From positions 9,734,001 to 9,798,000 of the forward strand of contig OZ024745.1 in the NCBI GenBank assembly GCA_964016885.1: a stretch of 64,000 nt of DNA. The letters run 5' to 3'. Shown here piece after piece: positions 1,481-35,192 of the stretch. The notes beneath the pieces were generated by a model. It was not told where the DNA came from, searched no databases, and worked only from the letters and a program-made list of their open reading frames with translations. The stretch comes from Eledone cirrhosa. Taxonomy: Eukaryota. The translations under genes and the position numbers were made by a program. Every line of letters starts with the position of its first letter. The first letter of the stretch is position 1.

Positions 1481-1673
1481 TCATCACTGTTTTACGTCCG
1501 TTCTTCCATGCTAGCATGGGTTAGACGGGTTGTCCTGTTGTGGGCAGTGTCTGGTCGGCTGACCATGCCTTGCTCATACAGGAACTGATTTTGGCTTGAT
1601 TTCTACAGCTGGATGTCTTTCCTACCACCAACCTCATTTACAGTGAGTGCTGGGTGCTTTTTTTCTGTGGCGC
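1481..1673 (-). mobile_element. Dispersed retroposon segment with RTE-type 3' tail (SINE 3' half or LINE 3' region)
   Basis: Minus strand ends ...CCGTCTAACCCATGCTAGCATGGAAGAACGGACGTAAAACAGTGATGA. Similar tails occur at 25171-25220, 27870-27915 and 29397-29445; the body is colinear with 25171-25892. Confidence 0.75.
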
Positions 1674-1939
1674 CTACACCTTTTTATGCAGCTGTCATCC
1701 TTCATACGCATCACATGTCCATACCAACGCAACCGCCTCTCCTGCACACAGCATATAATTCCTCTTATGCTCAGTCTCTCTCTCAATTCATTTCTGCTTT
1801 GCCGTTAGCGTATATTACTATTACACATCCATCGGAGCATGCAGGCTTCGTTTCTCTCTAATCTACGCAAGTCTTCCACCTTCAGTGCACAGGTCTCACT
1901 ACCATGTAACATAGCTGTTCGTATACACACATCATACAT
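1674..1939 (-). mobile_element. Decayed RTE-clade LINE fragment (region C-terminal to the RT core)
   Basis: Translates YDVCIRTAMLHGSETCALKVEDLRRLERNEACMLRWMC...*...ERRLRWYGHVMRM. LxGSET(W) and RLRWxGHVxRM are typical RTE ORF motifs; one internal stop. Confidence 0.88.
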
Positions 1940-2185
1940 ACTAAATATAGTAGGGTTTCACATACGTAATATACAGTGAATTGAAGAATTATCTAAGCCA
2001 TTATTTATAAAAAAAACAAAAAAAATAAAACAAGCAAGGATTTAACGCTAATAATATCAATAGATCAACATGTTAATAGATCAACAGGATAAACAATACA
2101 GACAATGCTAATTATAAAGAATTGGAAAAATGGCTATCAGTTGATTTGATGGGAATTAACTCTTGTTTATTGTATTTTGACTTGA

Positions 2186-5100
2186 TTTCTACAGCTGGCT
2201 GTCCTTCCTATTACCAACCACATTACAGTGTGGACTGGGAGACAGGTTTCTACAGCTGGCTGTCCTTCCTAACACCAACCACACTACAGTGTGGACTGGG
2301 AGACAGGTATCTACAGCTGGCTGTCCTTCCTAACACCAACCACATTACAGTGTGGACTGGGAGACAGGTTTCTACAGCTGGCTGTCCTTGCTAACACCAA
2401 CCACATTACAGTGTGGACTGGGAGACAGGTATCTACAGCTGGCTGTTCTTCCTAACACCAACCACACTACAGTGTGGACTGGGAGAAAGGTATCTACAGC
2501 TGGCTGTCCTTCCTAACACCAACCACATTACAGTGTGGACTGGGAGACAGGTTTCTACAGCTGGCTGTCCTTCCTAACACCAACCAACTACAGTGTGGAC
2601 AGGGAGAAAGGTTTCTACAGCTGGCTGTCCTTCCTAACACCAACCACACAACAGTGTGGACTGGGAGACAGGTATCTACAGCTGGCTGTCCTTCCTAACA
2701 CCAACCACACTACAGTGTAGACTGGGAGAAAGGTATCTACAGCTGGCTGTCCTTCCTAACACCAACCACACTACAGTGTGGACTGGGAGACAGGTTTCTA
2801 CAGCTGGCTGTCCTTCCTAACACCAACCACACAACAGTGTGGACTGGGAGACAGGTATCTACAGCTGGCTGTCCTTCCTAACACCAACCACACTACAGTG
2901 TGGACTGGGAGACAGGTTTCTACAGCTGGCTGTCCTACCTAACACCAACCACATTACAGTGTGAACTGGGAGACAGGTTTCTACAGCTGGCTGTCCTTCC
3001 TAACACCAACCACACTACAGTGTGGACTGGGAGAAAGGTATCTACAGCTGGCTGTCCTTCCTAACACCAACCACATTACAGTGTGGACTGGGAGAAAGGT
3101 ATCTACAGCTGGCTGTCCTTCCTAACACCAACCACACTACAGTGTGGACTGGGAGAAAGGTATCTACAGCTGGCTGTCCTTCCTAACACCAACCACACTA
3201 CAGTGTGGACTGGGAGACAGGTTTCTACAGCTGGCTGTCCTTCCTAACACCAACCACATTACAGTGTGGACTGGGAGACAGGTTTCTACAGCTGGCTGTC
3301 CTTCCTAACACCAACCAACTACAGTGTGGACAGGGAGAAAGGTTTCTACAGCTGGCTGTCCTTCCTAACACCAACCACACAACAGTGTGGACTGGGAGAC
3401 AGGTATCTACAGCTGGCTGTCCTTCCTAACACCAACCACACTACAGTGTAGACTGGGAGAAAGGTATCTACAGCTGGCTGTCCTTCCTAACACCAACCAC
3501 ACTACAGTGTGGACTGGGAGACAGGTTTCTACAGCTGGCTGTCCTTCCTAACACCAACCACACAACAGTGTGGACTGGGAGACAGGTATCTACAGCTGGC
3601 TGTCCTTCCTAACACCAACCACACTACAGTGTGGACTGGGAGACAGGTTTCTACAGTTGGCTGTCCTACCTAACACCAACCACATTACAGTGTGAACTGG
3701 GAGACAGGTTTCTACAGCTGGCTGTCCTTCCTAACACCAACCACACTACAGTGTGGACTGGGAGAAAGGTATCTACAGCTGGCTGTCCTTCCTAACACCA
3801 ACCACATTACAGTGTGGACTGGGAGAAAGGTATCTACAGCTGGCTGTCCTTCCTAACACCAACCACACTACAGTGTGGACTGGGAGACAGGTTACTACAG
3901 CTGGCTATCCTTCCTAACACCAACCACACTACAGTGTGGACTGGGAGACAGGTTTCTACAGCTGGCTGTCCTTCCTAACACCAACCACACTACAGTGTGG
4001 ACTGGGAGAAAGGTATCTACAGCTGTCTGTCCTTCCTAACACCAACCACACAACAGTGTGGACTGGGAGACAGGTATCTACAGCTGGCTGTCCTTCCTAA
4101 CACCAACCACACAACAGTGTGGACTGGGAGACAGGTATCTACAGCTGGCTGTCCTTCCTAACACCAACCACACTACAGTGTGGACTGGGAGAAAGGTATC
4201 TACAGCTGGCTGTCCTTCCTAACACCAACCACATTACAGTGTGGACTGGGAGACAGGTATCTACAGCTGGCTGCCCTTCCTAACACCAACCACACTACAG
4301 TGTGGACTGGGAGAAAGGTATCTACAGCTGGCTGTCCTTCCTAACACCAACCACACTACAGTGTGGACTGGGAGACAGTTTTCTACGGCTGGCTGTCCTT
4401 CCTAACACCAACCACATTACAGTGTGGACTGGGAGACAGGTATCTACAGCTGGCTGTCCTTCCTAACACCAACCACACTACAGTGTGGACTGGGAGAAAG
4501 GTATCTACAGCTGGCTGTCCTTCCTAACACCAACCACACTACAGTGTGGACTGGGAGAAAGGTTTCTACAGCTGGCTGTCCTTCCTAACACCAACCACAT
4601 TACAGTGTGGACTGGGAGACAGTTTTCTACAGCTGGCTGTCCTTCCTAACACCAACCACATTACAGTGTGGACTGGGAGACAGGTATCTACAGCTGGCTG
4701 TCCTTCCTAACACCAACCACACTACAGTGTGGACTGGGAGAAAGGTATCTACAGCTGGCTGTCCTTCCTAACACCAACCACACTACAGTGTGGACTGGGA
4801 GACAGGTTTCTACAGCTGGCTGTCCTTCCTAACACCAACCACATTACAGTGTGGACTGGGAGACAGGTATCTACAGCTGGCTGTCCTTCCTAACACCAAC
4901 CACACTACAGTGTGGACTGGGAGAAAGGTATCTACAGCTGGCTGTCCTTCCTAACACCAACCACACTACAGTGTGGACTGGGAGACAGGTTTCTACAGCT
5001 GGCTGTCCTTCCTAACACCAACCACACTACAGTGTGGACTGGGTGACAGGTTTCTACAGCTGGCTGTCCTTCCTAACACCAACCACATTACAGTGTGGAC

Positions 5101-8100
5101 TGGGAGAAAGGTATCTACAGCTGGCTGTCCTTCCTAACACCAACCACACTACAGTGTGGACTGGGTGACAGGTTTCTACAGCTGGCTGTCCTTCCTAACA
5201 CCAACCACACTACAGTGTGGACTGGGTGACAGGTTTCTACAGCTGGCTGTCCTTCCTAACACCAACCACACTACAGTGTGGACTGGGTGACAGGTATCTA
5301 CAGCTGGCTGTCCTTCCTAACACCAACCACACTACAGTGTGGACTGGGTGACAGGTTTCTACAGCTGGCTGTCCTTCCTAACACCAACCACATTACAGTG
5401 TGGACTGGGAGACAGGTTTCTACAGCTGGCTGTCCTTCCTAACACCAACCACACTACAGTGTGGACTGGGAGACAGGTTTCTACAGCTGGCTGTCCTTCC
5501 TAACACCAACCACACTACAGTGTGGACTGGGTGACAGGTTTCTACAGCTGGCTGTCCTTCCTAACACCAACCACACTACAGTGTGGACTGGGAGAAAGGT
5601 ATCTACAGCTGGCTGTCCTTCCTAACACCAACCACACTACAGTGTGGACTGGGAGACAGGTTTCTACAGCTGGCTGTCCTTCCTAACACCAACCACACTA
5701 CAGTGTGGACTGGGTGACAGGTTTCTACAGCTGGCTGTCCTTCCTAACACCAACCACATTACAGTGTGGACTGGGAGAAAGGTATCTACAGCTGGCTGTC
5801 CTTCCTAACACCAACCACACTACAGTGTGGACTGGGTGACAGGTTTCTACAGCTGGCTGTCCTTCCTAACACCAACCACACTACAGTGTGGACTGGGTGA
5901 CAGGTTTCTACAGCTGGCTGTCCTTCCTAACACCAACCACACTACAGTGTGGACTGGGTGACAGGTATCTACAGCTGGCTGTCCTTCCTAACACCAACCA
6001 CACTACAGTGTGGACTGGGTGACAGGTTTCTACAGCTGGCTGTCCTTCCTAACACCAACCACATTACAGTGTGGACTGGGAGACAGGTTTCTACAGCTGG
6101 CTGTCCTTCCTAACACCAACCACACTACAGTGTGGACTGGGAGACAGGTTTCTACAGCTGGCTGTCCTTCCTAACACCAACCACACTACAGTGTGGACTG
6201 GGTGACAGGTTTCTACAGCTGGCTGTCCTTCCTAACACCAACCACATTACAGTGTGGACTGGGAGAAAGGTATCTACAGCTGGCTGTCCTTCCTAACACC
6301 AACCACACTACAGTGTGGACTGGGTGACAGGTTTCTACAGCTGGCTGTCCTTCCTAACACCAACCACACTACAGTGTGGACTGGGTGACAGGTTTCTACA
6401 GCTGGCTGTCCTTCCTAACACCAACCACACTACAGTGTGGACTGGGTGACAGGTATCTACAGCTGGCTGTCCTTCCTAACACCAACCACACTACAGTGTG
6501 GACTGGGTGACAGGTTTCTACAGCTGGCTGTCCTTCCTAACACCAACCACATTACAGTGTGGACTGGGAGACAGGTATCTACAGCTGGCTGTCCTTCCTA
6601 ACACCAACCACACTACAGTGTGGACTGGGAGAAAGGTATCTACAGCTGGCTGTCCTTCCTAACACCAACCACATTACAGTGTGGACTGGGAGACAGGTAT
6701 CTACAGCTGGTTGCCCTTCCTAACACCAACCACATTACAGTGTGGACTGGGAGAAAGGTATCTACAGCTGGCTGTCCTTCCTAACACCAACCACACTACA
6801 GTGTGGACTGGGAGAAAGGTATCTACAGCTGGCTGTCCTACCTAACACCAACCACACTACAGTGTGGACTGGGAGACAGGTATCTACAGCTGGCTGTCCT
6901 ACCTAACACCAACCACATTACAGTGTGGACTGGGAGACAGGTTTCTACAGCTGGCTGTCCTACCTAACACCAACCACACCACAGTGTGGACTGGGAGACA
7001 GGTATCTACAGCTGGCTGTCCTTCCTAACACCAACCACATTACAGTGTGGACTGGGAGACAGGTTTCTACAGCTGGCTGTCCTACCTAACACCAACCACA
7101 TTACAGTGTGGACTGGGAGACAGGTATCTACAGCTGGCTGTCCTACCTAACACCAACCACATTACAGTGTGGACTGGGAGACAGGTTTCTACAGCTGGCT
7201 GTCCTTCCTAACACCAACCACATTACAGTGTGGACTGGGAGACAGGTATCTACAGCTGGCTGCCCTTCCTACCACCAACCACATTACAGTGTGGACTGGG
7301 AGACAGGTATCTACAGCTGGCTGTCCTTCCTAACACCAACCACATTACAGTGTGGACTGGGAGAAAGGTATCTACAGCTGGCTGTCCTTCCTAACACCAA
7401 CCACACAACAGTGTGGACTGGGAGACAGGTATCTACAGCTGGCTGTCCTTCCTAACACCAACCACACTACAGTGTGGACTGGGAGACAGGTATCTACAGC
7501 TGGCTGTCCTTCCTAACACCAACCACACTACAGTGTGGACTGGGAGAAAGGTATCTACAGCTGGCTGTCCTTCCTAACACCAACCACACTACAGTGTGGA
7601 CTGGGAGAAAGGTTTCTACAGCTGGCTGTCCTTCCTAACACCAACCACATTACAGTGTGGACTGGGAGACAGGTTTCTACAGCTGGCTGTCCTTCCTAAC
7701 ACCAACCACATTACAGTGTGGACTGGGAGACAGGTATCTACAGCTGGCTGTCCTTCCTAACACCAACCACACTACAGTGTGGACTGGGAGAAAGGTATCT
7801 ACAGCTGGCTGTCCTTCCTAACACCAACCACACTACAGTGTGGACTGGGAGACAGGTTTCTACAGCTGGCTGTCCTTCCTAACACCAACCACATTACAGT
7901 GTGGACTGGGAGACAGGTATCTACAGCTGGCTGTCCTTCCTAACACCAACCACACTACAGTGTGGACTGGGAGAAAGGTATCTACAGCTGGCTGTCCTTC
8001 CTAACACCAACCACATTACAGTGTGGACTGGGAGACAGGTATCTACAGCTGGCTGTCCTTCCTAACACCAACCACACTACAGTGTGGACTGGGAGAAAGG

Positions 8101-11100
8101 TATCTACAGCTGGCTGTCCTTCCTAACACCAACCACATTACAGTGTGGACTGGGAGACAGGTATCTACAGCTGGCTGCCCTTCCTAACACCAACCACATT
8201 ACAGTGTGGACTGGGAGAAAGGTATCTACAGCTGGCTGTCCTTCCTAACACCAACCACACTACAGTGTGGACTGGGAGAAAGGTATCTACAGCTGGCTGT
8301 CCTACCTAACACCAACCACACTACAGTGTGGACTGGGAGACAGGTATCTACAGCTGGCTGTCCTACCTAACACCAACCACATTACAGTGTGGACTGGGAG
8401 ACAGGTATCTACAGCTGGCTGTCCTTCCTAACACCAACCACATTACAGTGTGGACTGGGAGACAGGTTTCTACAGCTGGCGGTCCTACCTAACACCAACC
8501 ACATTACAGTGTGGACTGGGAGACAGGTATCTACAGCTGGCTGTCCTACCTAACACCAACCACACTACAGTCAGGACTGGGAGACAGGTTTCTACAGCTG
8601 GCTGTCCTTCCTAACACCAACCACATTACAGTGTGGACTGGGAGACAGGTATCTACAGCTGGCTGTCCTTCCTAACACCAACCGCATTACAGTGTGGACT
8701 GGGAGACAGGTTTCTACAGCTGGCTGTCCTTCCTAACACCAACCACACTACAGTGTGGACTGGGAGACAGGTTTCTACAGCTGGCTGTCCTTCCTAACAC
8801 CAACCACATTACAATGTGGACAGGGAGACAGGTATCTACAGCTGGCTGCCCTTCCTAACACCAACCACACTACAGTGTGGACTGGGAGACAGGTTTCTAC
8901 AGCTGGCTGTCCTTCCTAACACCAACCACATAACAGTGTGGACTGGGAGAAAGGTATCTACAGCTGGCTTTCCTTCCTAACACCAACCACATTACAGTGT
9001 GGACTGGGAGAAAGGTATCTACAGCTGGCTGTCCTTCCTAACACCAACCACATTACAGTGTGGACTGGGAGACAGGTTTCTACAGCTGGCTGTCCTTCCT
9101 AACACCAACCACACTACAGTGTGGACTGGGAGTCAGGTATCTACAGCTGGCTGTCCTTCCTAACACCAACCACACTACAGTGTGGACTGGGAGACAGGTA
9201 TCTACAGCTGGCTGTCCTTCCTAAGACCAACCACACTACAGTGTGGACTGGGAGACAGGTATCTACAGCTGGCTGTCCTTCCTAACACCAACCACACTAC
9301 AGTGTGGACTGGGAGACAGGTATCTACAGCTGGCTGTCCTTCCTAACACCAACCACATTACAGTGTGGACTGGGAGACAGGTATCTACAGCTGGCTGTCC
9401 TTCCTAACACCAACCACACTACAGTGTGGACTGGGAGACAGGTATCTATAGCTGGCTGTCCTTCCTAACACCAACCACACTACAGTGTGGACTGGGAGAC
9501 AGGTATCTACAGCTGGCTGTCCTTCCTAAGACCAACCACACTACAGTGTGGACTGGGAGACAGGTATCTACAGCTGGCTGTCCTTCCTAACACCAACCAC
9601 ACTACAGTGTGGACTGGGAGACAGGTATCTACAGCTGGCTGTCCTTCCTAACACCAACCACACTACAGTGTGGACTGGGAGACAGGTATCTACAGCTGGC
9701 TGTCCTTCCTAACACCAACCACATTACAGTGTGGACTGGGAGACAGGTATCTACAGCTGGCTGTCCTTCCTAACACCAACCACACTACAGTGTGGACTGG
9801 GAGACAGGTTTCTACAGCTGGCTGTCCTTCCTAACACCAACCACACTACAGTGTGGACTGGGAGAAATGTATCTAAAGCTGGCTGTCCTTCCTAACACCA
9901 ACCACATTACAGTGTGGACTGGGAGACAGGTTTCTACAGCTGGCTGTCCTACCTAACATCAACCACACTACAGTGTGGACTGGGAGAAAGGTATCTACAG
10001 CTGGCTGTCCTTCCTAACACCAACCACATTACAGTGTGGACTGGGAGACAGGTATCTACAGCTGGCTGTCCTTCCTAACACCAACCACACTACAGTGTGG
10101 ACTGGGAGACAGGTATCTACAGCTGGCTGTCCTTGCTAACACCAACCACACTACAGTGTGGACTGGGAGAAAGGTATCTACAGCTGGCTGTCCTTCCTAA
10201 CACCAACCACATTACAGTATGGACTGGGAGACAGGTATCTACAGCTGGCTGTCCTACCTAACACCAACCACACTACAGTGTGGACTGGGAGAAAGGTATC
10301 TACAGCTGGCTGTCCTTCCTAACCCCAACCACATTACAGTGTGGACTGGGAGAAAGGTATCTACAGCTGGCTGTCCTTCCTAACACCAACCACATTACAG
10401 TGTGGACTGGGAGACAGGTATCTACAGCTGGCTGTCCTTCCTAACACCAACCACACTACAGTGTGGACTGGGAGACAGGTATCTACAGCTGGCTGTCCTT
10501 GCTAACACCAACCACACTACAGTGTGGACTGGGAGAAAGGTTTCTACAGCTGGCTGTCCTTTCTAACACCAACCACATTACAGTGTGGACTGGGAGATAG
10601 GTATCTACAGCTGGCTGTCCTACCTAACACCAACCACACTACAGTGTGGACTGGGAGAAAGGTATCTACAGCTGGCTGTCCTTCCTAACACCAACCACAC
10701 TACTGTGTGGACTGGGAGAAAGGTATCTACAGCTGGCTGTCCTTGCTAACACCAACCACACTACAGTGTGGACTGGGAGAAAGGTATCTACAGCTGGCTG
10801 TCCTTCCTAACACCAACCACATTACAGTGTGGACTGGGAGAAAGGTATCTACAGCTGGCTGTCCTTCCTAACACCAACCACATTACAGTGTGGACTGGGA
10901 GAAAGGTATCTACAGCTGGCTGTCCTTCCTAACACCAACCACATTACAGTGTGGACTGGGAGACAGGTTTCTACAGCTGGCTGTCCTTCCTAACACCAAC
11001 CACACTACAGTGTGGACTGGGAGACAGGTATCTACAGCTGGCTGTCCTTCCTAACACCAACCACATTACAATGTGGACTGGGAGAAAGGTATCTACAGCT

Positions 11101-14100
11101 GGCTGTCCTTCCTAACACCAACCACACTAGAGTGTGGACTGGGAGACAGGTTTCTACAGCTGGCTGTCCTACCTAACACCAACCACACTACAGTGTGGAC
11201 TGGGAGACAGGTTTCTACAGCTGGCTGTCCTTCCTAACACCAACCACATTACAGTGTGGACTGGGAGACAGGTTTCTACAGCTGGCTGTCCTTCCTAACA
11301 CCAACCACACTACAGTATTGACCGGGAGACAGGTATCTACAGCTGGCTGTCCTTCCTAACACCAACCACATTACAGTGTGGACTGGGAGACAGGTATCTA
11401 CAGCTGGCTGTCCTTCCCAACACCAACCACACTACAGTGTGGACTGGGAGACAGGTATCTACAGCTGGATGTCCTTCCTAACACCAACCACATTACAATG
11501 TGGACTGGGAGAAAGGTATCTACAGCTGGCTGTCCTTCCTAACACCAACCACATTACAGTGTGGACAGGGAGACAGGTATCTACAGCTGGCTGTCCTTCC
11601 TAACACCAACCACATTACAGTGTGGACTGGGAGACAGGTATCTACAGCTGGCTGTCCTTCCTAACACCAACCCCACAACAGTGTGGACTGGGAGACAGGT
11701 ATCTACAGCTGGCTGTCCTTCCTAACACCAACCACACTACAGTGTGGACTGGGAGACAGGTATCTACAGCTGGCTGTCCTTCCTAACACCAACCACACTA
11801 CAGTGTGGACAGGGAGACAGGTATCTACAGCTGGCTGTCCTTCCTAACACCAACCACACTACAGTGTGGACTGGGAGACAGGTATCTACAGCTGGCTGTC
11901 CTTCCTAACACCAACCACATTACAGTGTGGACTGGGAGACAGGTTTCTACAGCTGGCTGTCCTTCCTAACACCAACCACACTACAGTGTGGACTGGGAGA
12001 CAGGTATCTACAGCTGGCTGTCCTTCCTAACACCAACCACATTACAGTGTGGACTGGGAGAAAGGTATCTACAGCTGGCTGTCCTTCCTAACACCAACCA
12101 CACTACAGTATTGACTGGGAGACAGTTTTCTACAGCTGGCTGTCCTTCCTAACACCAACCACACTACAGTGTGGACTGGGAGACAGGTATCTACAGCTGG
12201 CTGTCCTTCCTAACACCAACCACACTACAGTGTGGACTGGGAGAAAGGTATCTACAGCTGGCTGTCCTTCCTAACACCAACCACATTACAGTGTGGACTG
12301 GGAGAAAGGTTTCTACAGCTGGCTGTCCTTCCTAACACCAACCACATTACAGTGTGGACTGGGAGACAGGTTTCTACAGCTGGCTGTCCTTCCTAACACC
12401 AACCACATTACAGTGTGGACTGGGAGACAGGTATCTACAGCTGGCTGTCCTTCCTAACACCAACCACACTACAGTGTGGACTGGGAGAAAGGTATCTACA
12501 GCTGGCTGTCCTTCCTAACACCAACCACACTACAGTGTGGACTGGGAGACATGTTTCTACAGCTGGCTGTCCTTCCTAACACCAACCACATTACAGTGTG
12601 GACTGGGAGACAGGTATCTACAGCTGGCTGTCCTTCCTAACACCAACCACACTACAGTGTGGACTGGGAGAAAGGTATCTACAGCTGGCTGTCCTTCCTA
12701 ACACCAACCACACTACAGTGTGGACTGGGAGACAGGTTTCTACAGCTGGCTGTCCTTCCTAACACCAACCACATTACAGTGTGGACTGGGAGACAGGTAT
12801 CTACAGCTGGCTGTCCTTCCTAACACCAACCACACTACAGTGTGGACTGGGAGAAAGGTATCTACAGCTGGCTGTCCTTCCTAACACCAACCACACTACA
12901 GTGTGGACTGGGAGACAGGTTTCTACAGCTGGCTGTCCTTCCTAACACCAACCACATTACAGTGTGGACTGGGAGACAGGTATCTACAGCTGGCTGTCCT
13001 TCCTAACACCAACCACACTACAGTGTGGACTGGGAGAAAGGTATCTACAGCTGGCTGTCCTTCCTAACACCAACCACATTACAGTGTGGACTGGGAGACA
13101 GGTATCTACAGCTGGCTGTCCTTCCTAACACCAACCACATTACAGTGTGGACTGGGAGAAAGGTATCTACAGCTGGCTGTCCTTCCTAACACCAACCACA
13201 CTACAGTGTGGACTGGGAGAAAGGTATCTACAGCTGGCTGTCCTACCTAACACCAACCACACTACAGTGTGGACTGGGAGACAGGTATCTACAGCTGGCT
13301 GTCCTACCTAACACCAACCACATTACAGTGTGGACTGGGAGACAGGTTTCTACAGCTGGCTGTCCTACCTAACACCAACCACACTACAGTGTGGACTGGG
13401 AGACAGGTATCTACAGCTGGCTGTCCTTCCTAACACCAACCACATTACAGTGTGGACTGGGAGACAGATTTCTACAGCTGGCGGTCCTACCTAACACCAA
13501 CCACATTACAGTGTGGACTGGGAGACAGGTATCTACAGCTGGCTGTCCCACCTAACACCAACCACACTACAGTCAGGACTGGGAGACAGGTTTCTACAGC
13601 TGGCTGTCCTTCCTAACACCAACCACATTACAGTGTGGACTGGGAGACAGGTATCTACAGCTGGCTGTCCTTCCTAACAACAACCACACTACAGTGTGGA
13701 CTGGGAGACAGGTTTCTACAGCTGGCTGTCCTTCCTAACACCAACCACATTACAATGTGGACAGGGAGACAGGTATCTACAGCTGGCTGTCCTTCCTAGC
13801 ACCAACCACATTACAGTGTGGACTGGGAGAAAGGTATCTACAGCTGGCTGTCCTTCCTAACACCAACCACATTACAGTGTGGACTGGGAGACAGGTTTCT
13901 ACAGCTGGCTGTCCTTCCTAACACCAACCACACTACAGTGTGGACTGGGAGTCAGGTATCTACAGCTGGCTGTCCTTCCTAACACCAACCACACTACAGT
14001 GTGGACTGGGAGACAGGTTTCTACAGCTGGCTGTCATTCCCAACACCAACCACACTACAGTGTGGACTGGGAGACAGGTATCTACAGCTGGCTGGCCTTC

Positions 14101-20100: not shown

Positions 20101-23100
20101 GGACTGGGAGACAGGTTTCTACAGCTGGCTGTCCTTCCTAACACCAACCACACTACAGTGTGGACTGGGAGACAGGTATCTACAGCTGGCTGACCTTCCT
20201 AACACCAACCACACTACAGTCTGGACAGGGAGAAAGGTTTCTACAGCTGGCTGTCCTTCCTAACACCAACCACACTACAGTGTGGACTGGGAGACAGGTT
20301 TCTACAGCTGGCTGTCCTTCCTAACACCAACCACACTACAGTGTGGACTGGGAGACAGGTTTCTACAGCTGGCTGTCCTTCCTAACACCAACCACATTAC
20401 AGTGTGGACTGGGAGACAGGTTTCTACAGCTGGCTGTCCTTCCTAACACCAACCACATTACAGTGTGGACTGGGAGACAGGTATCTACAGCTGGCTGTCC
20501 TTCCTAACACCAACCACACTACAGTGTGGACTGGGAGACAGGTTTCTACAGCTGGCTGTCCTTCCTAACACCAACCACACTACAGTGTGGACTGGGAGAC
20601 AGGTATCTACAGCTGGCTGTCCTTCCTAACACCAACCAACTACAGTGTGGACTGGAAGACAGGTATCTACAGCTCTACAGCTGGCTGTCCTTCCTAACAC
20701 CAACCACACTATAGTGTGGACTGGGAGACAGGTTTCTACAGCTGGCTGTCCTTCCTAACACCAACCACACTACAGTGTGGACTGGGAGACAGGTTTCTAC
20801 AGCTGGCTGTCCTTCCCAACACCAACAACACTACAGTGTGGACTGGGAGAAAGGTATCTACAACTGGCTGTCCTTCCTAACACCAACCACATTACAGTGT
20901 GGACTGGGAGACAGGTTTCTACAGCTGGCTGTCCTTCCTAACACCAACCACATTACAATGTGGACTGGGAGAAAGGTATCTACAGCTGGCTGTCCTTCCT
21001 AACACCAACCACACTACAGTGTGGACTGGGAGACAGGTATCTACAGCTGGCTGTCCTTCCTAACACCAACCACATTACAATGTGGACTGGGAGAAAGGTA
21101 TCTACAGCTGGCTGTCCTTCCTAACACCAACCACACTACAGTGTGGACTGGGAGACAGGTATCTACAGCTGGCTGTCCTTCCTAACACCAACCACACTAC
21201 AGTGTGGACTGGGAGACAGGTATTTACAGCTGGCTGTCCTTCCTAACACCAACCATACTACAGTGTGGACTGGGAGACAGGTATCTACAGCTGGCTGTCC
21301 TTCCTAACACCAACCACATTACAGTGTGGACTGGGAGACAGGTATCTACAGCTGGCTGTCCTTCCTAACACCAACCACACTACAGTGTGGACTGGGAGAC
21401 AGGTTTCTACAGCTGGCTGTCCTTCCCAACACCAACCACACTACAGTGTGGACTGGGAGACAGGTTTCTACAGCTGGCTGTCCTTCCCAACACCAACCAC
21501 ATTACAGTGTGGACTGGGAGACAGGTATCTACAGCTGGCTGTCCTTCCTAATACCAACCACACTACAGTGTGGACTGAGAGACAGGTATCTACAGCTGGC
21601 TGTCCTTCCTAACACCAACCACATTACAGTGTGGACTGGGAGAAAGGTATCTACAGCTGGCTGTCCTTCCTAACACCAACCACATTACAGTGTGGACTGG
21701 GAGACAGGTTTCTACAGCTGGCTGTCCTTCCTAACACCAACCACACTACAGTGTGGACTGGGAGACAGGTTTCTACAGCTGGCTGTCCTTCCTAACACCA
21801 ACCAACTACAGTGTGGACTGGGAGACAGGTATCTACAGCTGGCTGTCCTTCCCAACACCAACCACACTACAGTGTGGACTGGGAGACAGGTTTCTACAGC
21901 TGGCTGTCCTTCCCAACACCAACCACATTACAGTGTGGACTGGGAGACAGGTATCTACAGCTGGCTGTCCTTCCTAATACCAACCACACTACAGTGTGGA
22001 CTGAGAGACAGGCATCTACAGCTGGCTGTCCTTCCTAACACCAACCACATTACAGTGTGGACTGGGAGAAAGGTATCTACAGCTGGCTGTCCTTCCTAAC
22101 ACCAACCACATTACAGTGTGGACTGGGAGACAGGTTTCTACAGCTGGCTGTCCTTCCTAACACCAACCACACTACAGTGTGGACTGGGAGACAGGTTTCT
22201 ACAGCTGGCTGTCCTTCCTAACACCAACCAACTACAGTGTGGACTGGGAGACAGGTATCTACAGCTGGCTGTCCTTCCTAACACCAACCACACTACAGTG
22301 TGGACAGGGAGAAAGGTTTCTACAGCTGGCTGTCCTTCCTAACACCAACCACACTACAGTGTGGACTGGGAGACAGGTTTCTACAGCTGGCTGTCCTTCC
22401 TAACACCAACCACACTACAGTGTGGACTGGGAGACAGGTTTCTACAGCTGGCTGACCTTCCTAACACCAACAACACTACAGTGTGGACTGGGAGACAGGT
22501 TTCTACAGCTGGCTGTCCTTCCTAACACCAACCACACTACAGTGTGGACTGGGAGACAGGTATCTACAGCTGGCTGTCCTTCCTAACACCAACCACACTA
22601 CAGTGTGGACAGGGAGAAAGGTTTCTACAGCTGGCTGTCCTTCCTAACACCAACCACACTACAGTGTGGACTGGGAGACAGGTTTCTACAGCTGGCTGTC
22701 CTTCCTAACACCAACCACATGACAGTGTGGACTGGGAGACAGGTTTCTACAGCTGGCTGTCCTTCCTAACACCAACCACATTACAGTGTGGACTGGGAGA
22801 CAGGTATCTACAGCTGGCTGTCCTTCCTAACACCAACCACACTACAGTGTGGACTGGGAGACAGGTTTCTACAGCTGGCTGTCCTTCCTAACACCAACCA
22901 CACTACAGTGTGGACTGGGAGACAGGTTTCTACAGCTGGCTGTCCTTCCTAACACCAACCACACTACAGTGTGGACTGGGAGACAGGTATCTACAGCTGG
23001 CTGTCCTTCCTAACACCAACCAACTACAGTGTGGACTGGAAGACAGGTATCTACAGCTCTACAGCTGGCTGTCCTTCCTAACACCAACCACACTACAGTG

Positions 23101-23407
23101 TGGACAGGGAGACAGGTTTCTACAGCTGGCTGTCCTTCCTAACAGCAACCACACTACAGTGTTGACTGGGAGACAGGTTTCTACAGCTGGCTGTCCTTCC
23201 TAACACCAACCACGTTACAGCGTGGACTGGGAGAAAGGTATCTACAGCTGGCTGTCCTTCCTAACACCAACCACACTACAGTGTTGACTGGGAGACAGGT
23301 ATCCACAGCTGGCTGTCCTTCCTAACACCAACCACATTACAGTGTGGACTGGGAGACAGGTATCTACAGCTGGCTGTCCTTCCTAACACCAACCACATTA
23401 CAGTGTG
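2186..23407. repeat. 61-bp satellite array, ~348 monomers, inside the last GNB5 intron
   Basis: Consensus TACAGTGTGGACTGGGAGA(C/A)AGGT(A/T)TCTACAGCTGGCTGTCCTTCCTAACACCAACCACA(C/T), head-to-tail. Copy number is span/61. Confidence 0.99.
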
Positions 23408-23800
23408 ACTATATTTATTTTTCTTAGAAACATCTACACACACTCTCATAACCAAACACATAACAAAGAAAATGTATATAATATCGTATGTATGTGTATA
23501 TTTGCATATAATACAGTATGTATATGTGTATATAATACAGAGTGAGCATAAAATATTTCCCTGATCATATAATACCATATCTCAGATACTATTTGAGATT
23601 TTACTTTTTCATTGTTTTAATTTATAAATTTCAAGTTTAAAGTTTTTCTGAACATGTTTGATATTTTCTCTTCTACAGGAAGTAGTTGTAATATTCTTAA
23701 TGAAGGTTTAATATACTTAATGAATGTTTATAATGAAGGAAAGACTTTATTCTCTCTCTGTATATGAGAGCATATGTGTATGTTTGTATATAATACTAAC

Positions 23801-23967
23801 CTTCAGTGTGTAATCCCAGCTACCAGTACACAGAGCTGTACCATCAGGTGATACACCAAGACAACTAACACGATTTTCATGACCGTACAATACACATATA
23901 CGGTTGCTCTTCAGGACGTCCCATATATTTACAGTATAATCGTTATATCCAGTAAATAGTAATCGAC
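23801..23967 (-). CDS. GNB5: GNB5-like penultimate coding exon
   Basis: (G)[55 protein letters not shown]. Acceptor TATAG, donor GTTAGT; 167 nt, ends phase 0. Confidence 0.95.
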
Positions 23968-24331
23968 CTATACACCAGAGAGAAAAACCCATAGTAAGGA
24001 ATATGATTGAAGGAAAAGACAATTAAATAAACATAAATAATTATTAGAATTTAATCAAAATATTAAACAATTTAGTCAGATATTAAAGAGAGACATCATA
24101 TTTTGTAGGTTTTAGATAATAGAAAATAATTTATTTTCAGAAAGATAAAAATAATAATAATAATAAATCATTGTGTACAATGCTCAGATGCATTACTAAG
24201 TTGTAAGATTCATTATGAAAAATCATTTGATAAAATTATATTTATTGATGGATGGAACCAGTGAATGACTATTTATTCTATAAATATGGGATGTAATTAA
24301 AATTTTCCAAACTCCCCAAATGGATACTTAC

Positions 24332-24428
24332 CACTTAATGAGAATCCTACAGAGTTACAACCAAAAATAATGCTTTCTTTTTTATAGCAATTTACTTCTC
24401 GGTCAGCTCGTAAATCAAACAAACGACA
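24332..24428 (-). CDS. GNB5: GNB5-like coding exon
   Basis: [33 protein letters not shown], matching Gbeta5 [23 protein letters not shown]. Acceptor TTTTGCAG, donor GTAAGT; 97 nt. Confidence 0.94.
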
Positions 24429-25005: not shown

Positions 25006-25146
25006 CGTTGCATCATCAGAACCAGTAGCAAATGCATCTCCACTGGGATAGAACCTGACTGAATTGATGTCATTTTCATGGCCTTCAAATACTTGGGTAC
25101 ATTCACCAGTTCTTATGTCCCATATCATTGCAACTTTATCACAACC
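25006..25146 (-). CDS. GNB5: GNB5-like coding exon
   Basis: [47 protein letters not shown]. Acceptor TTTCACAG, donor GTAAA; 141 nt; lies within ORF 24949..25182. Confidence 0.95.
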
Positions 25147-25170
25147 CTGTGAAATATAGAGAGAAGATAT

Positions 25171-25892
25171 CATCATCATCACTGTTTAACATCTATACTC
25201 TATGTTCCCATAGGTTAGACAAGCTGTCATGTTACGTGGATAATCAGGTCAGCTGACCATATCATGCTCATATATCAAGTCAGCTGACCACATCTTGCTC
25301 ATATATCAGGTCAGGTGACCACATCTTGCTCATATATCAGGTCAGCTGACCACATCTTGCTCATATATCAGGTCAGGTGACCACATCTTGCTCATATATC
25401 AGGTCAGCTGACCATATCTTGCTCATATATCAGGTCAGGTGACCACATCTTGCTCATATATCAGGTCAGCTGACCACATCTTGCTCATATATCAGGTCAG
25501 CTGACCACATCTTGCTCATATATCAGGTCAGGTGACCACATCTTGCTCATATATCAGGTCAGCTGACCACATCTTGCTCATATAAGGTCAGCTGACCACA
25601 TCTTGCTCATATATCAGGTCAGCTGACCACATCTTGCTCATATATCAAGTCAGGTGACCACATCTTGCTCATATATCAGGTCAGCTGACCATATTTTGCT
25701 CATATATCAGGTCAGCTGACCATATTTTGCTCATATATCAGGTCACCTGACCACATCTTGCTCAGATGCTCTGTTTTTAACTTGGTCTTCTATGGTTTGA
25801 TACTTCTTCTAATGCCAACCATTTCATGGCAAGGTTTGTTGTCTCATGACACCTAACAGAGTGTACTAGGAGCTTTTTTCATGGTACCAGCA
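25171..25892 (-). mobile_element. Second copy of the same RTE-tailed element, internally expanded by the 31-bp minisatellite
   Basis: On + it reads (CAT)n-CACTGTTTAAC...GGTTAGAC...[GGTCAGCTGACC array]...TTCTATGG...CTAATGCCAACC...GTGTACTAGGAGCTTTTTTCATGGTACCAGCA, in the same order as 1481-1673. Confidence 0.75.
25244..25764. repeat. 31-bp minisatellite, ~17 copies
   Basis: Unit TCAGGTCAG(C/G)TGACCACATCTTGCTCATATA; contains the 12-bp palindrome GGTCAGCTGACC. Confidence 0.97.
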
Positions 25893-26125
25893 TTAATACC
25901 TTATAAGGTTGACTGAGTGATTTTAAATACAGCTTGGCAATAATTAATAGATTATAAGTATGTATTTCTATTTAATCTTATATATTTGTTATATGACAAT
26001 AAAAATGCTTTTTCTTTATTGAAAAAAAATACATTTATGTCTACAGAATAATATTTTCTGGAAAGAAATCTGTTTTTATTTATTTATTTTTATCCCCACC
26101 CGAAAAAAATTAAAAAAGTACTTAC

Positions 26126-26269
26126 TCCGGATACAAACTGGTTTCCAGTTTCTGAAGGGGAAAGATCAATGCTCATAACATCTCCAGCATGTCCATGAAA
26201 ACTCTGAATCAATTGGCCACTTTCAACATCCCACAATGCACATGTGCTGTCTCCACTTCCTGTGAGAAT
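26126..26269 (-). CDS. GNB5: GNB5-like coding exon
   Basis: [48 protein letters not shown]; the PSETGN motif is characteristic of Gbeta5 rather than Gbeta1-4. AG/GTAAG boundaries; 144 nt. Confidence 0.95.
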
Positions 26270-27109: not shown

Positions 27110-27297
27110 TGTTTCTACTATTGGCACAAGGCCAGCAATTACCCAGTGTATTACTGGTACTTTATTTTATCGACCTCGTAAGGATGAAAGGCAAAGTTAA
27201 CCTTGGCGGGATTTGAATTCAGAATGGCAAGGGCCGTAACTCTATGCGTCAAAGCATGGCGTCCGACCCTCTACCGATACTGCCAATTCACTGCCCT
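27110..27297 (-). mobile_element. tRNA-derived SINE with a Meta-domain-like core, near full length
   Basis: Box A-like TGGCAGTATCGG, box B-like GAATTCAAATCC, core GCCTTTCATCCTTACGAGGTCGATAAAATAAAGTACCAG. Flanked by the direct repeat ATGATAATGATGATAAT (27093-27109 and 27298-27314). Confidence 0.82.
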
Positions 27298-27446: not shown

Positions 27447-27573
27447 CTGTTGGTCAGATGTGGTAAATGTGCAACATGACAAATAACTGGTATGTGTAGC
27501 AACTGCTTTCTTTTTAGTGGCAGGATCTTCATCCAAACTTAGTGGGTAAATGGTGCATTTGTTGTCCAGACCT
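27447..27573 (-). CDS. GNB5: GNB5-like coding exon
   Basis: First base completes the Gly codon, then [42 protein letters not shown]. Acceptor TATGCAG, donor GTAAG; 127 nt, phase-compatible with neighbours. Confidence 0.93.
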
Positions 27574-30485: not shown

Positions 30486-30562
30486 CCACAAGCCACTACA
30501 GTTCCTGAAGGTCCATAAGCACAAGCCATCACCCATGTTGTTGGCATGGTAACTGCATGCTC
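30486..30562 (-). CDS. GNB5: G-protein beta-5 (GNB5-like) coding exon, most 5' exon found in the window
   Basis: Translates [26 protein letters not shown](G), matching Gbeta5 [20 protein letters not shown]. Acceptor TTTTCTAG, donor GTAAG; 77 nt, ends phase 2. Confidence 0.93.
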
Positions 30563-30682
30563 CTAGAAAAAGAAGAGAAAAAATCACTAGATATCATTCT
30601 CATAAAGCAACAGGCTTAGGTTTCCCAAAAATGCATTCAAAGGGGAACTATTTCTTTTAATATTTCACAGATAACTTGTGGT

Positions 30683-30735: not shown

Positions 30736-30741
30736 TGATAG

Positions 30742-31622
30742 GTAAATATGAGATGTGACTTATACATGAGTAAATATGAGATGTGACTTGTACATGAGTA
30801 AATATGAGATGTGACTTGTACATGAGTAAATATGAGATGTGACTTATACATGAGTAAATGTGAAATATAACTTATACATGAGTAAATATGAGATGTGACT
30901 TATACACGAGTAAATATGAGATGTGACTTATACATGAGTAAATATGAGATGTGACTTATACATGAGTAAATATGAGATGTGACTTGTACATGAGTAAATA
31001 TGAGATGTGACTTGTACATGAGTAAATATGAGATGTGACTTATACATGAGTAAATGTGAAATATAACTTATACATGAGTAAATATGAGATGTGACTTATA
31101 CACGAGTAAATATGAGATGTGACTTATACATGAGTAAATATGAGATGTGACTTATACATGAGTAACAATGAAATATAACTTATACATGAGTAAATATGAG
31201 ATGTGACTTATACATTAGTAAATATGAGATGTGACTTATACACGAGTAAATATGAGATGTGACTTATACATGAGTAAATATGAGATGTGACTTATACATG
31301 AGTAAATATAAGATGTGAGTTATACACGAGTAAATATAAGATGTGAGTTATACACGAGTAAATATGAGATGTGAGTTATACACGAGTAAATATGAAATAT
31401 AACTTATACATGAGTAAATATGAGATGTGACTTATACATTAATAAATATGAGATGTGACTTATACACGAGTAAATATGAGATGTGACTTATACATGAGTA
31501 AATATGAGATGTGACTTATACATGAGTAAATATGAAATGTAACTTATACATGAGTAAATATGAGATGCGACTTATACATGAGTAAATATGAGATGTGACT
31601 TATACATGAATAAATATGAGAT
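30742..31622. repeat. 28-bp minisatellite, ~31 copies
   Basis: Unit GAGTAAATATGAGATGTGACTTATACAT; one variant monomer recurs 196 bp (7 units) apart (30861 and 31057). Confidence 0.97.
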
Positions 31623-32919
31623 TATCTAATAATTATTAAAGAAGTTTACTACTAAACAAATATTTCCATGCAACAAATCTTTTGTTAAAATATTAGTTCT
31701 CCTCCAGTTTTATCATAACTACACTGTTGTCTTTCTGCCTAGTCTTAACATATTTCTTGAGTCACACCAAGACAGTACAGTTTTATGTATAAACAAGGTT
31801 GTTAGATATAAATCTGTTGATAGATTTGAATATCAATGTAGTTTAGTTGAAGCAGTGGCAGTGTAGTGAAATTATTCTTCTGTGAACTTTGGCATGGTAA
31901 ATGCCAGAAATGATCATATTTTCTTATATGCCATATTGGTCAACAACAATAGATGACAACTAGGAGAATATAAAAGTTACACAGTCCCACTCTCTCAGAC
32001 TTTGGTTGTGAGTAACTGCTATGTCAGTAGGTTAGGGAATATACATCTCTACATTTACCCATTCAATCTGTCTCTAATACATCTTGCTACATCTAAATAT
32101 ATGTATATTCAAAGAAAATACTCTCCTTCAGTGTCAACTTTATATTGTAGTCATATGTTTGTGAAAGCAGGCTTATAATTATCAAGTTTTGTATATTTCT
32201 GTTGTGTTAATGTCTGTTGTATGGATTCATTGAATTCATACAAGACATTAAAATCTATAATTCTTACAGAATTAAAATATACACAAATAATATATACAAT
32301 AGTTAACAAATATATAAGATTAGAGAAAAACGACCATCAATTCACTACCAAGTGTGATAATCGGCCGAAAATCATAAGGGTCAACGGAACACTTTGAGGC
32401 AAGCCAACACGTTCGCGACATTAGCACGGGCAATGGCGAGGCTGAGACGTTGAAACAGCCAGGGACCTTCACGGGCATCACCTGACACCTCGGCAAGCCG
32501 CCAGCGATGACAAAATACATTTTTTCCGTGGGACAATTATATATCATTTGAAAGTTCAGGATGTGAAGTTTCTTCTCATGCCAGATCCCCTTAATCACCC
32601 TCGTATTTCCACCCATTTACAACATTTATTCCAATTTTGCTTTTGACCGCTGAACTGCGCTAATTCTTGTTCAATATGCTGGAGCACTATAACTCAATTT
32701 GTATTGAAAATGGTACAGCCATGAAGGACTTTGTTTTTGCTTTTTTGATATAAAAAAATCTATTGGGTTAGGTCAGATAAACGTTATGAAAAATAAAAGT
32801 GAACATTTTATTATTTTTCACTTAGAAAAAAACATATTTTCTTCCAGATTTTTATACAAGAAAGAAAATTTTCTGGCAAATCTGTCGAAGAGATGCCAGC
32901 ACCAAGTCAATATGAGAGA

Positions 32920-35078
32920 TAGGTGGTAGTACTGGTGTCAATAAAACACACCCAGTCGTCCGTTAGGTGGTAGTACTGGTGTCACAATAAAACACTCAGT
33001 CGTCCCTGTTAGGTGATAGTACTGGTGTCACAATAAAACACACCCAGTCCTCCCTGTTAGGTGGTAGTACTGGTGTCACAATAAAACACACCCAGTCCTC
33101 CCTGTTAGGTGATAGTACTGGTGTCACAATAAAACACACCCAGTCCTCCCTGTTAGGTGATAGTACTGGTGTCACAATAAAACACACCCAGTCCTCCCTG
33201 TTAGGTGGTAGTACTGGTGTCACAATAAAACACACCCAGTCCTCCCTGTTAGGTGATAGTACTGGTGTCACAATAAAACACACCCAGTCCTCCCTGTTAG
33301 GTGGTAGTACTGGTGTCACAATAAAACACTCAGTCATCCCTGTTAGGTGGTAGTACTGGTGTCACAATAAAACACACCCAGTCGTCCGTTAGGTGGTAGT
33401 ACTGGTGTCACAATAAAACACACCCAGTCGTCCCTGTTAGGTGGTAGTACTGGTGTCACAATAAAACACACCCAGTCCTCCCTGTTAGGTGGTAGTACTG
33501 GTGTCACAATAAAACACACCCAGTCCTCCCTGTTAGGTGGTAGTAGTGGTGTCACAATAAAACACTCAGTCATCCCTGTTAGGTGGTAGTACTGTTGTCA
33601 CAATAAAACACACCCAGTCTTCCTTGTTAGGTGGTAGTACTGGTGTCACAATAAAACACACCCAGTCGTCCCTGTTAGGTGGTAGTACTGGAGTCACAAT
33701 AAAACACACCCAGTCCTCCCTGTTAGGTGGTAGTACTGGTGTCACAATAAAACACACCGAGTCCTCCCTGTTAGGTGGTAGTACTGGTGTCACAATAAAA
33801 CACACCCAGTCCTCCCTGTTAGGTGGTAGTACTGGTGTCACAATAAAACACACCCAGTCCTTGTTAGGTGGTAGTACTGGTGTCACAATAAAACACACCC
33901 AGTCCTTGTTAGGTGGTAGTACTGGTGTCACAATAAAACACACCCAGTCCTTGTTAGGTGGTAGTACTGGTGTCACAATAAAACACACCCAGTCTTCCCT
34001 GTTAGGTGGTAGTACTGGTGTCACAATAAAACACTCAGTCATCCCTGTTAGGTGGTAGTACTGGTGTCACAATAAAACACACCCAGTCCTCCCTGTTAGG
34101 TGGTAGTACTGGTGTCACAATAAAACACTCAGTCATACCTGTTAGGTGGTAGTACTGGTGTCACAATAAAACACTCAGTCATACCTGTTAGGTGGTAGTA
34201 CTGGTGTCACAATAAAACACACCCAGTCCTCCTTGTTAGGTGGTTGTACTGGTGTCACAATAAAACACACCCAGTCCTCCTTGTTAGGTGGTAGTACTGG
34301 TGTCACAATAAAACACACCGAGTCCTCCCTGTTAGGTGGTAGTACTGGTGTCACAATAAAACACACCCAGTCCTCCCTGTTAGGTGGTAGTACTGGTGTC
34401 ACAATAAAACACTCAGTCATACCTGTTAGGTGGTAGTACTGGTGTCACAATAAAACACACCCAGTCCTCCTTGTTAGGTGGTAGTACTGGTGTCACAATA
34501 AAACACACCGAGTCCTCCCTGTTAGGTGGTAGTACTGGTGTCACAATAAAACACCCAGTCCTCCCTGTTAGGTGGTAGTACTGGTGTCACAATAAAACAC
34601 ACCCAGTCCTCCCTGTTAGGTGGTAGTACTGGTGTCACAATAAAACACACCCAGTCCTCCCTGTTAGGTGGTAGTACTGGTGTCACAATAAAACACTCAG
34701 TCATACCTGTTAGGTGGTAGTACTGGTGTCACAATAAAACACACCCAGTCCTCCCTGTTAGGTGGTAGTACTGGTGTCACAATAAAACACACCCAGTCCT
34801 CCCTGTTAGGTGGTAGTACTGGTGTCACAATAAAACACACCGAGTCCTCCCTGTTAGGTGGTAGTACTGGTGTCACAATAAAACACACCCAGTCCTCCCT
34901 GTTAGGTGGTAGTACTGGTGTCACAATAAAACACACCCAGTCCTCCCTGTTAGGTGGTAGTACTGTTGTCACAATAAAACACTCAGTCATACCTGTTAGG
35001 TGGTAGTACTGGTGTCACAATAAAACACACCCAGTCCTCCCTGTTAGGTGGTAGTACTGTTGTCACAATAAAACACAC
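32920..35078. repeat. 48-bp minisatellite, ~45 copies
   Basis: Unit GTTAGGTGGTAGTACTGGTGTCACAATAAAACACACCCAGTCCTCCCT; produces the 16-aa periodic ORFs on both strands. Confidence 0.98.
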
Positions 35079-35192
35079 TAGTGATGATGATGATTGTGGT
35101 GAACAAAACTTTTAAAAAAGTCAAAAGTGGACTATTACAAAAAGAAGTTTGGTGATCCCTGGTCTAGTGGGGGAGGTGACATCCAGCACCAC

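What the first reader, a model, noticed from the sequence alone, without database searches (positions are those of the whole stretch)
1481..35095. One retroposon family appears to have seeded three different tandem arrays at this locus
Seen: consecutive segments of the element at 1481-1673 correspond to separate arrays. (a) CTGGTCGGCTGACCATGCCTTGCTCATA (1551-1578) matches the 31-bp unit, and that array is still embedded in element copy 25171-25892. (b) 1600-1655 matches the 61-bp unit. (c) The reverse complement of 1648-1675 and 25863-25892 (CTGGTACCATGAAAAAAGCTCCTAGT; GCCACAGAAAAAAAGCACCCAGC) resembles CTGGTGTCACAATAAAACACACCCAGT in the 48-bp unit, and that array is followed by the element-type GTGATGATGATGA tail (35081) in the matching orientation. 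Each amplified segment contains a palindrome or hairpin. Inference: a structured, satellite-prone retroposon acting as a recurrent source of intronic arrays. Link (c) is the weakest.
Basis: partly seen in the sequence, partly recalled or inferred. Interest (0 to 1): 0.75.

Follow-up and report, generated by a model that had tools for sequence, protein, structure and literature searches.

The report
Retroposon tail seeds three intronic satellites
Three long tandem-repeat arrays in the introns of a G-protein beta gene match pieces of one common jumping-gene tail, and two of them likely grew from short repeats that an older form of the element already carried, a known route to satellite DNA in a genome that turns many kinds of sequence into such arrays.

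Summary
The 61-, 31- and 48-bp units each match the 3' module shared by an RTE-like LINE and a tRNA-headed SINE (0 of 1000 shuffles each). The 28- and 47-bp arrays do not. All lie in introns of a G-beta-5-like gene. The copy at 1481 is not the source. The 48- and 61-bp units fit an older subfamily that already carries 48-bp tandems and a 61-bp dimer with one fixed junction. The 31-bp junction occurs only here and in this locus's duplicate. Elsewhere 9 of 11 assessable 48-bp arrays and 8 of 10 61-bp arrays still sit in element flanks. Two parts of the interpretation fail. Hairpins are not general. The family as a whole is not enriched: 3 of 79 arrays in a random 1.39 Mb, against 3.4% expected (p=0.51). 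This is the known LTR12/Ogre/squamate-sSat route. The scan noted 48-bp arrays from this tail before, on other DNA.

The parts
1481..1938 (-). 5'-truncated young RTE-like LINE copy: end of the ORF (1674-1938, broken), internal deletion of about 230 bp, then the 3' module with GAT tail (1481-1679). Not the parent of the arrays.
   Evidence: 96% to the young consensus, 79% to the older one
2172..2187 (-). 16-nt remnant of the element sequence that follows the last 61-bp unit in the dimer subfamily
   Evidence: alignment; beyond it the flank is not significant
2188..23407 (-). 61-bp array, about 348 copies, 95% matches; fills 21.2 of the 22.5 kb last intron; unit boundaries as in the older subfamily's built-in 61-bp dimer
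25170..25925 (-). old element copy (77% to the older-subfamily consensus once the array is collapsed) that hosts the 31-bp array
25243..25764 (-). 31-bp array, 17 copies, local duplication with a junction found nowhere else; the consensus unit holds a perfect 12-bp palindrome
32920..35078 (+). 48-bp array, about 46 copies, from the module's built-in 44-50-bp tandem; 42 of 48 identical to the older subfamily's unit
35081..35093 (+). GAT tail right after the 48-bp array; likely the same copy's tail after loss of about 240 bp in between (inferred)
23799..23965 (-). exon of the G-beta-5-like host gene; the next exon ends near 1319, so the 61-bp array is in the last intron
   Evidence: spliced contigs and their loose end, translation, PDB hits
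24330..24428 (-). host gene exon
   Evidence: joints with CT..AC ends in X1, X2, X8
25006..25146 (-). host gene exon, on the 3' side of the 31-bp array's intron
26125..26267 (-). host gene exon, on the 5' side of the 31-bp array's intron
27447..27573 (-). host gene exon
30486..30564 (-). host gene exon; the next upstream exon was found by translation about 7 kb beyond the window end, which puts the 28-, 48- and 47-bp arrays in one intron of about 40 kb (inferred, no spliced contig laid across it)
30742..31622 (.). 28-bp array, not from this module (control)
35208..63541 (.). 47-bp array, about 627 copies, not from this module (control)

Best explanation
The 61-, 31- and 48-bp arrays match segments of the 3' module of an RTE-like retroposon clan, and each likely grew in place from its own old inserted copy by ordinary DNA-level unequal exchange or slippage. 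Shown: the module carries 44-50-bp tandems in dispersed copies, and an older, low-copy subfamily also carries a 61-bp unit two or three times with one fixed junction. Inferred: retrotransposition scattered these ready-made tandems, and the 48- and 61-bp arrays are such seeds that ran away and were homogenised locally. The 31-bp array instead likely began as a one-off duplication inside the copy at 25170-25925, perhaps helped by its 12-bp palindrome. Three at one locus likely reflects a very common module in a genome with a high general rate of array growth, not a special property of this gene.
For: Units match the module, controls do not. All 11 single-match junction loci fetched from C1 are element copies: 8 dimers, 1 trimer, 1 with 5 units, 1 broken just after the junction. 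The junction shares only about 1 nt of exact microhomology between the unit's two ends (read), so repeated independent duplication at the same bases is unlikely. Array consensus units from different loci differ as much (81% for ten 61-bp arrays, 82% for fifteen 48-bp arrays) as dispersed dimer units do (80%), while units within an array are 90-94% alike. Element flanks persist at 8 of 10 other 61-bp arrays (both sides at 4) and 9 of 11 assessable 48-bp arrays; L107 holds a 48- and a 61-bp array in one copy. The 31-bp junction has 28 matches, all here or in the duplicate locus; a 30-bp array of the same segment on C12 has other breakpoints. On C1, 2 of 14 exact-junction loci have 5 or more units, against a background of about 0.8-1.2% per segment of that size (p = 0.005-0.012). 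Copy numbers differ between the two 99.99% identical versions of this locus: 45.7 against 67.7 units (48 bp) and about 21.2 against 26.1 kb (61 bp).
Against: The window's own 61- and 48-bp arrays keep almost no parental flank (scores 14, 14 and 20 against shuffled maxima of 28, 24 and 28), so growth in place is inferred for them from other loci. A 6.4-kb, 98% identical piece of the 61-bp array lies 0.4 Mb away, inverted, with no element flanks (L105), so arrays also move as DNA. The window's 61-bp unit is only 80-84% like the dimer unit and lacks the exact junction motif. The other arrays were found with the window's units as queries and only 38-40 candidates were scored per search, so the set is biased to these periods. 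The C1 test rests on 14 loci, and exact matching favours arrays. In the random sample even the 48-bp segment alone is not significantly enriched (2 of 79 against 0.95%, p=0.17), and no 61-bp junction was present (0 of 139 stretches). The expansion mechanism itself was not tested.
Confidence: 0.8

Rival explanations
1. One reading: hairpins or palindromes in the element cause repeated de novo duplication, which makes the whole family satellite-prone.
For: The 31-bp unit has a perfect 12-bp palindrome and folds better than shuffles (z = -2.45). A second, independent 30-bp array covers the same segment (L266), found among 4 candidate loci fetched.
Against: The 61- and 48-bp units do not fold unusually (z = -1.39, -0.43), and no 50-nt window of the older consensus goes below z = -1.63. 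No family-wide enrichment (3 of 79, p=0.51; 2 of 53, p=0.54). The 61-bp junction is shared by dispersed dimers.
Confidence: 0.08
2. The arrays are members of dispersed satellite families that came from the element once each and then spread as array fragments (circles, repair or segmental copying), landing here without a local parent copy.
For: The window's 61- and 48-bp arrays lack clear flanks, as do L101, L102, L105 and L109. L105 is a relocated piece of the window's 61-bp array.
Against: Most arrays keep element flanks in register, and arrays differ from each other as much as old dispersed copies do. The 61-bp array here ends in the 16-nt exit sequence of the element, and the 48-bp array in a GAT tail. 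It cannot apply to the 31-bp array.
Confidence: 0.09
3. Reverse-transcriptase slippage or rolling made the long arrays at insertion.
For: The units come from the 3' end, which is copied first, and the master's own dimer probably arose in this way (inference).
Against: Units within arrays are far more alike (90-94%) than old dispersed copies are to their consensus (80-89%), so growth or homogenisation came after the host copy had aged. Copy number differs between two near-identical versions of the locus. About four fifths of random arrays match no dispersed repeat in the sample (15 of 79 do).
Confidence: 0.03

Closest known systems
Human TE-derived minisatellites from LTR12 and L1PA (Ahmed and Liang 2012, PMC3389668; passages seen)
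   Same: Tandems already present in the element's consensus were spread by transposition and give hotspots (about 19% of 7,276 TE-derived repeats); TE-derived repeats then expand by local duplication. They report 23% of human minisatellites as TE-derived; here 15 of 79 (19%) match a dispersed repeat within the sample.
   Different: The human Alu-derived repeats average about 2.3-2.4 units; here arrays reach hundreds of units and over 20 kb, and the source is an RTE-like LINE/SINE tail.
SINE-derived satellites (sSats) of squamates (Vassetzky et al. 2023, PMC10702118; abstract, passages and whole Discussion seen)
   Same: Arrays of a SINE segment with the SINE's own end kept on one side, up to 1000 units, a range from internal duplications to long arrays, and favoured primary duplications.
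   Different: [quoted passage not shown] Their long loci homogenise between loci; here loci stay about 81% alike.
Pea PisTR-A satellite from tandem repeats in the Ogre 3' UTR (as summarised in the review PMC9659126, passages and section 6 seen; the original paper was not read)
   Same: Satellite amplified from tandem repeats already in a retrotransposon's 3' UTR.
   Different: Ogre is an LTR element in a plant; here a non-LTR module gives many separate locus-specific arrays with at least three different units.
RTE-clade LINEs and RTE-derived bipartite SINEs, including Ceph-SINEs (Kojima 2018, PMC5786205; parts 2 and 3 of 5 seen)
   Same: A tRNA-headed SINE and LINEs share the 3' module and microsatellite tail.
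   Different: Whether this module is the RTE 5'-UTR-derived half of the Ceph domain was not tested; the sequences are in figures and supplements that I did not open.

Membership tests
TE-derived minisatellite/satellite (criteria of PMC3389668) | unit at least 70% similar to a TE consensus | tested here: met
   61 bp 51 of 61, 48 bp 42 of 48, 31 bp 26 of 31 to the best consensus; 0 of 1000 shuffles
TE-derived minisatellite/satellite (criteria of PMC3389668) | array overlaps a TE copy in position | tested here: inconclusive
   met for the 31-bp array; only a 16-nt remnant for the 61-bp and a GAT tail for the 48-bp array
LTR12/Ogre type: tandem pre-built in the element and spread by transposition | dispersed copies already carry the unit two or more times with the same junction | tested here: met
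   61 bp: 10 of 11 junction loci fetched hold 2-5 units; 48 bp: several tandem units in many dispersed copies
LTR12/Ogre type: tandem pre-built in the element and spread by transposition | the same for the 31-bp unit | tested here: not met
   junction pattern matches only this locus and its duplicate, 28 of 28 matches
Squamate-type sSat | tandem of a SINE segment with a terminal unit that runs on into the element's end | tested here: met
   9 of 11 assessable 48-bp arrays run on into the downstream element; 8 of 10 61-bp arrays keep a flank on at least one side
Squamate-type sSat | subtelomeric preference | not tested
   positions hint at ends and small chromosomes; no test run
Squamate-type sSat | homogenisation between long loci | tested here: not met
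   between-locus identity 81-82%, like dispersed copies at 80%
RTE-clade LINE | one ORF with AP endonuclease and reverse transcriptase, about 1000 aa | tested here: met
   copy L253 has an endonuclease domain (PF14529, E 4.8e-8) upstream of RT-like frames; most of 106 homologues carry PF00078, many at about 1000 aa. The reading of 'craniofacial development protein 2-like' hits as RTE-derived is recalled.
RTE-clade LINE | reverse-transcriptase tree places it in the RTE clade | not tested
   no named reference set fetched; 'RTE-like' is the label used
RTE-clade LINE | short tandem-repeat 3' tail and 5' truncation | tested here: met
   GAT tails and variable 5' ends in L001-L030 and random-sample copies
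   1 of 3 units (31 bp) passes z = -2
   3 of 79, p=0.51; a two- to three-fold excess is not excluded

The most novel reading that the evidence does not exclude
A low-copy retroposon subfamily planted the same 61-bp dimer at hundreds of unrelated sites, and about a tenth or more of those seeds grew into arrays, roughly ten times the genome's background. That is a natural replicated experiment: same seed, same age class, many addresses, outcomes from 2 to about 350 units. It would let one measure how much the first duplication limits satellite birth and how chromosomal position sets the growth rate.
Probability: 0.45. Interest if true: 0.55.

Novelty: new member of a known kind. Interest (0 to 1): 0.35.

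Why it matters
Satellites born from transposon segments are well described (PMC3389668, PMC9659126, PMC10702118), so the finding is not a new kind of system. What is useful is that one locus shows both routes side by side: growth of a tandem inherited from the element (48, 61 bp) and a fresh local duplication (31 bp). The 61-bp dimer subfamily gives a fixed, datable seed for measuring satellite birth rates. The background also matters: complex arrays of 5 or more units cover 12.8% of a random 1.39 Mb, about 130,000 arrays by extrapolation, and they inflate this gene's introns to 22 and about 40 kb. Three paper searches on octopus or cephalopod tandem arrays listed no paper on this module's arrays; I saw listings only, and subscription papers and Repbase are not covered.

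Tried and rejected
Rfam scan of 1-35300: no family at gathering score. The 1481 copy as direct parent: rejected, it is young (96% to the young consensus) and the 48- and 61-bp units fit the older subfamily better. The 28- and 47-bp arrays as further products: rejected (no hits among the masked random loci). Copy-specific bases in first against last 61-bp units as proof of an inherited dimer: not used, the tallies are mixed and CpG decay could give both states. Enrichment with a threshold of 3 copies gave 10 of 145 (p=0.028), but 6 of the 10 have under 5 units and are mostly the module's built-in tandems, so I did not count this as array seeding. One of the 3 module-matching arrays in the 79 (L239, 31 bp, z=5.1) is a weak match; without it the count is 2 of 79. 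A direct genome-wide count of adjacent 61-bp junction pairs was not obtained, so the number of 61-bp arrays is a lower bound (11 known with the exact junction: 7 fetched, 4 from the listing). No run on record as RNA was listed; the spliced contigs come from runs whose kind is guessed or unknown. Pfam gave no family for three shorter ORF pieces. PMC9068888 has no passage on satellites or tandem repeats (term search only); PMC13282606 part 1 of 3 gave only general repeat content. One of 140 random stretches did not exist, and contigs C16, C27 and the small unplaced contigs are not in the sample.
Full report
Setting. The window is G000:C5:9734001-9798000 in a 3.0-Gb animal genome. TRF shows five complex arrays: 61 bp (2188-23407), 31 bp (25243-25764), 28 bp (30742-31622), 48 bp (32920-35078) and 47 bp (35208-63541).

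Host gene. Contigs of runs X1, X2 and X8 join three minus-strand exons with CT..AC intron ends, and further pieces of X1 and X8 mark three more. The exons translate to a WD40 G-protein beta subunit. One exon scores E about 1e-34 against G-beta-5 chains and about 1e-29 to 1e-30 against single G-beta-1 chains; three higher rows are a two-stretch construct and repeat proteins. The loose end before 23799 resembles window 1291-1320 (by eye), where the frame ends VWA-stop, so the 61-bp array and the 1481 element are in the last intron. The 31-bp array lies between exons 25006-25146 and 26125-26267. Two upstream exons were found by translation about 7 and 9 kb past the window end, so the 48-bp array is intronic too; that last step has no spliced contig behind it.

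The element. The copy at 1481 is longer than stated: 1481-1679 is the 3' module and 1674-1938 is the end of a reverse-transcriptase ORF, with about 230 bp deleted between them. A longer copy, L253, carries an endonuclease domain and its homologues are mostly endonuclease-RT proteins, many near 1000 aa. I call it RTE-like; no tree was made. The same module ends a tRNA-headed SINE (the tRNA-head label is recalled). It is common: 248 profile hits, 3.4% of non-tandem DNA in 139 random 10-kb stretches.

Check of the three links. Each unit was scored in all rotations against two module consensuses, with 1000 dinucleotide shuffles: 61 bp z=23.9, 31 bp z=8.5, 48 bp z=10.2, none reached by a shuffle. 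The 28- and 47-bp units were reached by 406 and 155.

Where the units come from. Searches with the window's units found many other arrays of the same periods (40 of 395 and 38 of 1720 candidates scored). I fetched 14 loci from the 48-bp search and 16 from the 61-bp search; ten of the latter held 61-bp arrays of 5 or more units. Nine of 11 assessable 48-bp arrays run on into the rest of the element, and 8 of 10 61-bp arrays keep element flank on at least one side. The nine 61-bp arrays away from C5 end their units at the same junction. An exact 19-nt junction pattern has 1157 matches in the genome, at 14 loci on C1. I fetched the 11 single-match C1 loci: 8 dimers, 1 trimer, 1 with five units, 1 broken after the junction. 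Of 9 loci picked by the subfamily's start motif, 2 of 6 assessable were multimers. So an older subfamily carried one to four 48-bp units, then two or three 61-bp units, then the middle and tail. A consensus of the 8 dimers fits the window's 48-bp unit at 42 of 48 and the 61-bp unit at 51 of 61, better than the 1481 copy does (37 of 48 gapped, 48 of 61); for the 31-bp unit the three references are alike (24-26 of 31). The 31-bp junction matches only this locus and its duplicate, so it is a local event; a 30-bp array of the same segment on C12 has different breakpoints.

Growth in place. Consensus units of different arrays are 81-82% alike, as dispersed dimer units are (80%), while units inside an array are 90-94% alike. 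This fits separate expansions from aged copies. Against it, the window's own 61- and 48-bp arrays have lost nearly all flank, and a 98% identical 6.4-kb piece of the 61-bp array lies inverted at C5:10.155 Mb with no element flank. A second version of the whole locus at C5:1.3 Mb differs by 1 base in 10,000 yet has 67.7 instead of 45.7 48-bp units and about 26.1 instead of 21.2 kb of 61-bp array: the arrays still change length, or assemble unevenly.

Hairpins: only the 31-bp unit stands out (z=-2.45); 61 and 48 bp do not. Enrichment: TRF covers 31.6% of the random sample. Of 79 complex arrays with 5 or more units and 200 bp or more, 3 match the module (one weakly), as expected from its 3.4% share (p=0.51); 15 of 79 match some dispersed repeat, from several other families. 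The 95% interval reaches 10.7%, so a modest excess is possible. At the sampled rate, 2-6 stretches of 35 kb in the genome would hold three such arrays by chance, so this locus is unusual but not beyond chance for a scan. The one sign of real proneness is the dimer subfamily: 2 of 14 C1 loci have 5 or more units against about 1% background (p=0.005-0.012, optimistic because exact matching favours arrays), and 11 arrays with the exact junction are known against about 95 loci extrapolated from C1.

Mechanism. Shown: homology, intronic position, pre-built tandems in dispersed copies, a private 31-bp junction, locus-specific homogenisation. Inferred: that the dimer was inherited from a source element, that growth was by unequal exchange or slippage, and that the 48-bp array's tail is its own after a deletion.

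Comparison and verdict. The route is described for human LTR12 and L1PA (PMC3389668, passages), pea Ogre 3' UTR repeats (review PMC9659126, passages and section 6) and squamate sSats (PMC10702118, abstract, passages, Discussion). Supplements were not opened; those of PMC5786205 could settle whether the module is the Ceph domain. Earlier scan notes on this genome report 48-bp arrays from the same tail and a genome-wide array nursery; they are unreviewed, and I reached my reading before seeing them. New member of a known kind; interest 0.35.

Noticed in passing
G000:C5:1.285-1.340 Mb (L002, L270, L271, L274) against window 1-41000: The G-beta-5-like locus is present twice on C5, 8.4 Mb apart, 99.9-99.99% identical outside the arrays but with different array lengths: a false duplication of two haplotypes or a very recent segmental duplication.
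   Followed up: partly
L105 2094-8453 (G000:C5:10.155-10.161 Mb): A 104-unit piece of the window's 61-bp array, 98% identical, inverted, 0.4 Mb away, with unrelated flanks: arrays move as DNA.
   Followed up: partly
L111-L249 (139 random 10-kb stretches): 31.6% of bases are TRF-covered and 12.8% lie in complex arrays of 5 or more units, nearly each with its own unit; six stretches are filled end to end by one complex array.
   Followed up: partly
L152 2252-2738 and L161 3801-4661: Two separate arrays (70 and 72 bp) come from the same segment of another dispersed repeat (24-25 loci in the sample), so recurrent seeding is not limited to this module.
   Followed up: no
L176 5176-10000, L190 3863-4173, L214 7552-8760: Arrays from a SINE head region (60 bp), another SINE (45 bp) and LINE coding sequence (80 bp); origins read from matches to many dispersed loci and by eye.
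   Followed up: no
L107 1-4146 (G000:C28:106.865 Mb): One element copy holds a 48-bp array (41 or more units) followed by a 61-bp array (34 units) and then the normal 3' end.
   Followed up: partly
window 35208-63541: The largest array (47 bp, 28 kb) starts 130 bp after the 48-bp array, is rich in CAC triplets and has no match to the module or to dispersed repeats in the sample; origin unexplained.
   Followed up: partly
window 26478-26598 and 27096-27291: Two copies of a different, very abundant SINE-like repeat in introns, heavily covered by contigs of X8 and X1.
   Followed up: no
L219 6398-6954: A 139-bp unit spanning two 48-type repeats and the core of the module, 4 copies: a further period from the same tail.
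   Followed up: no
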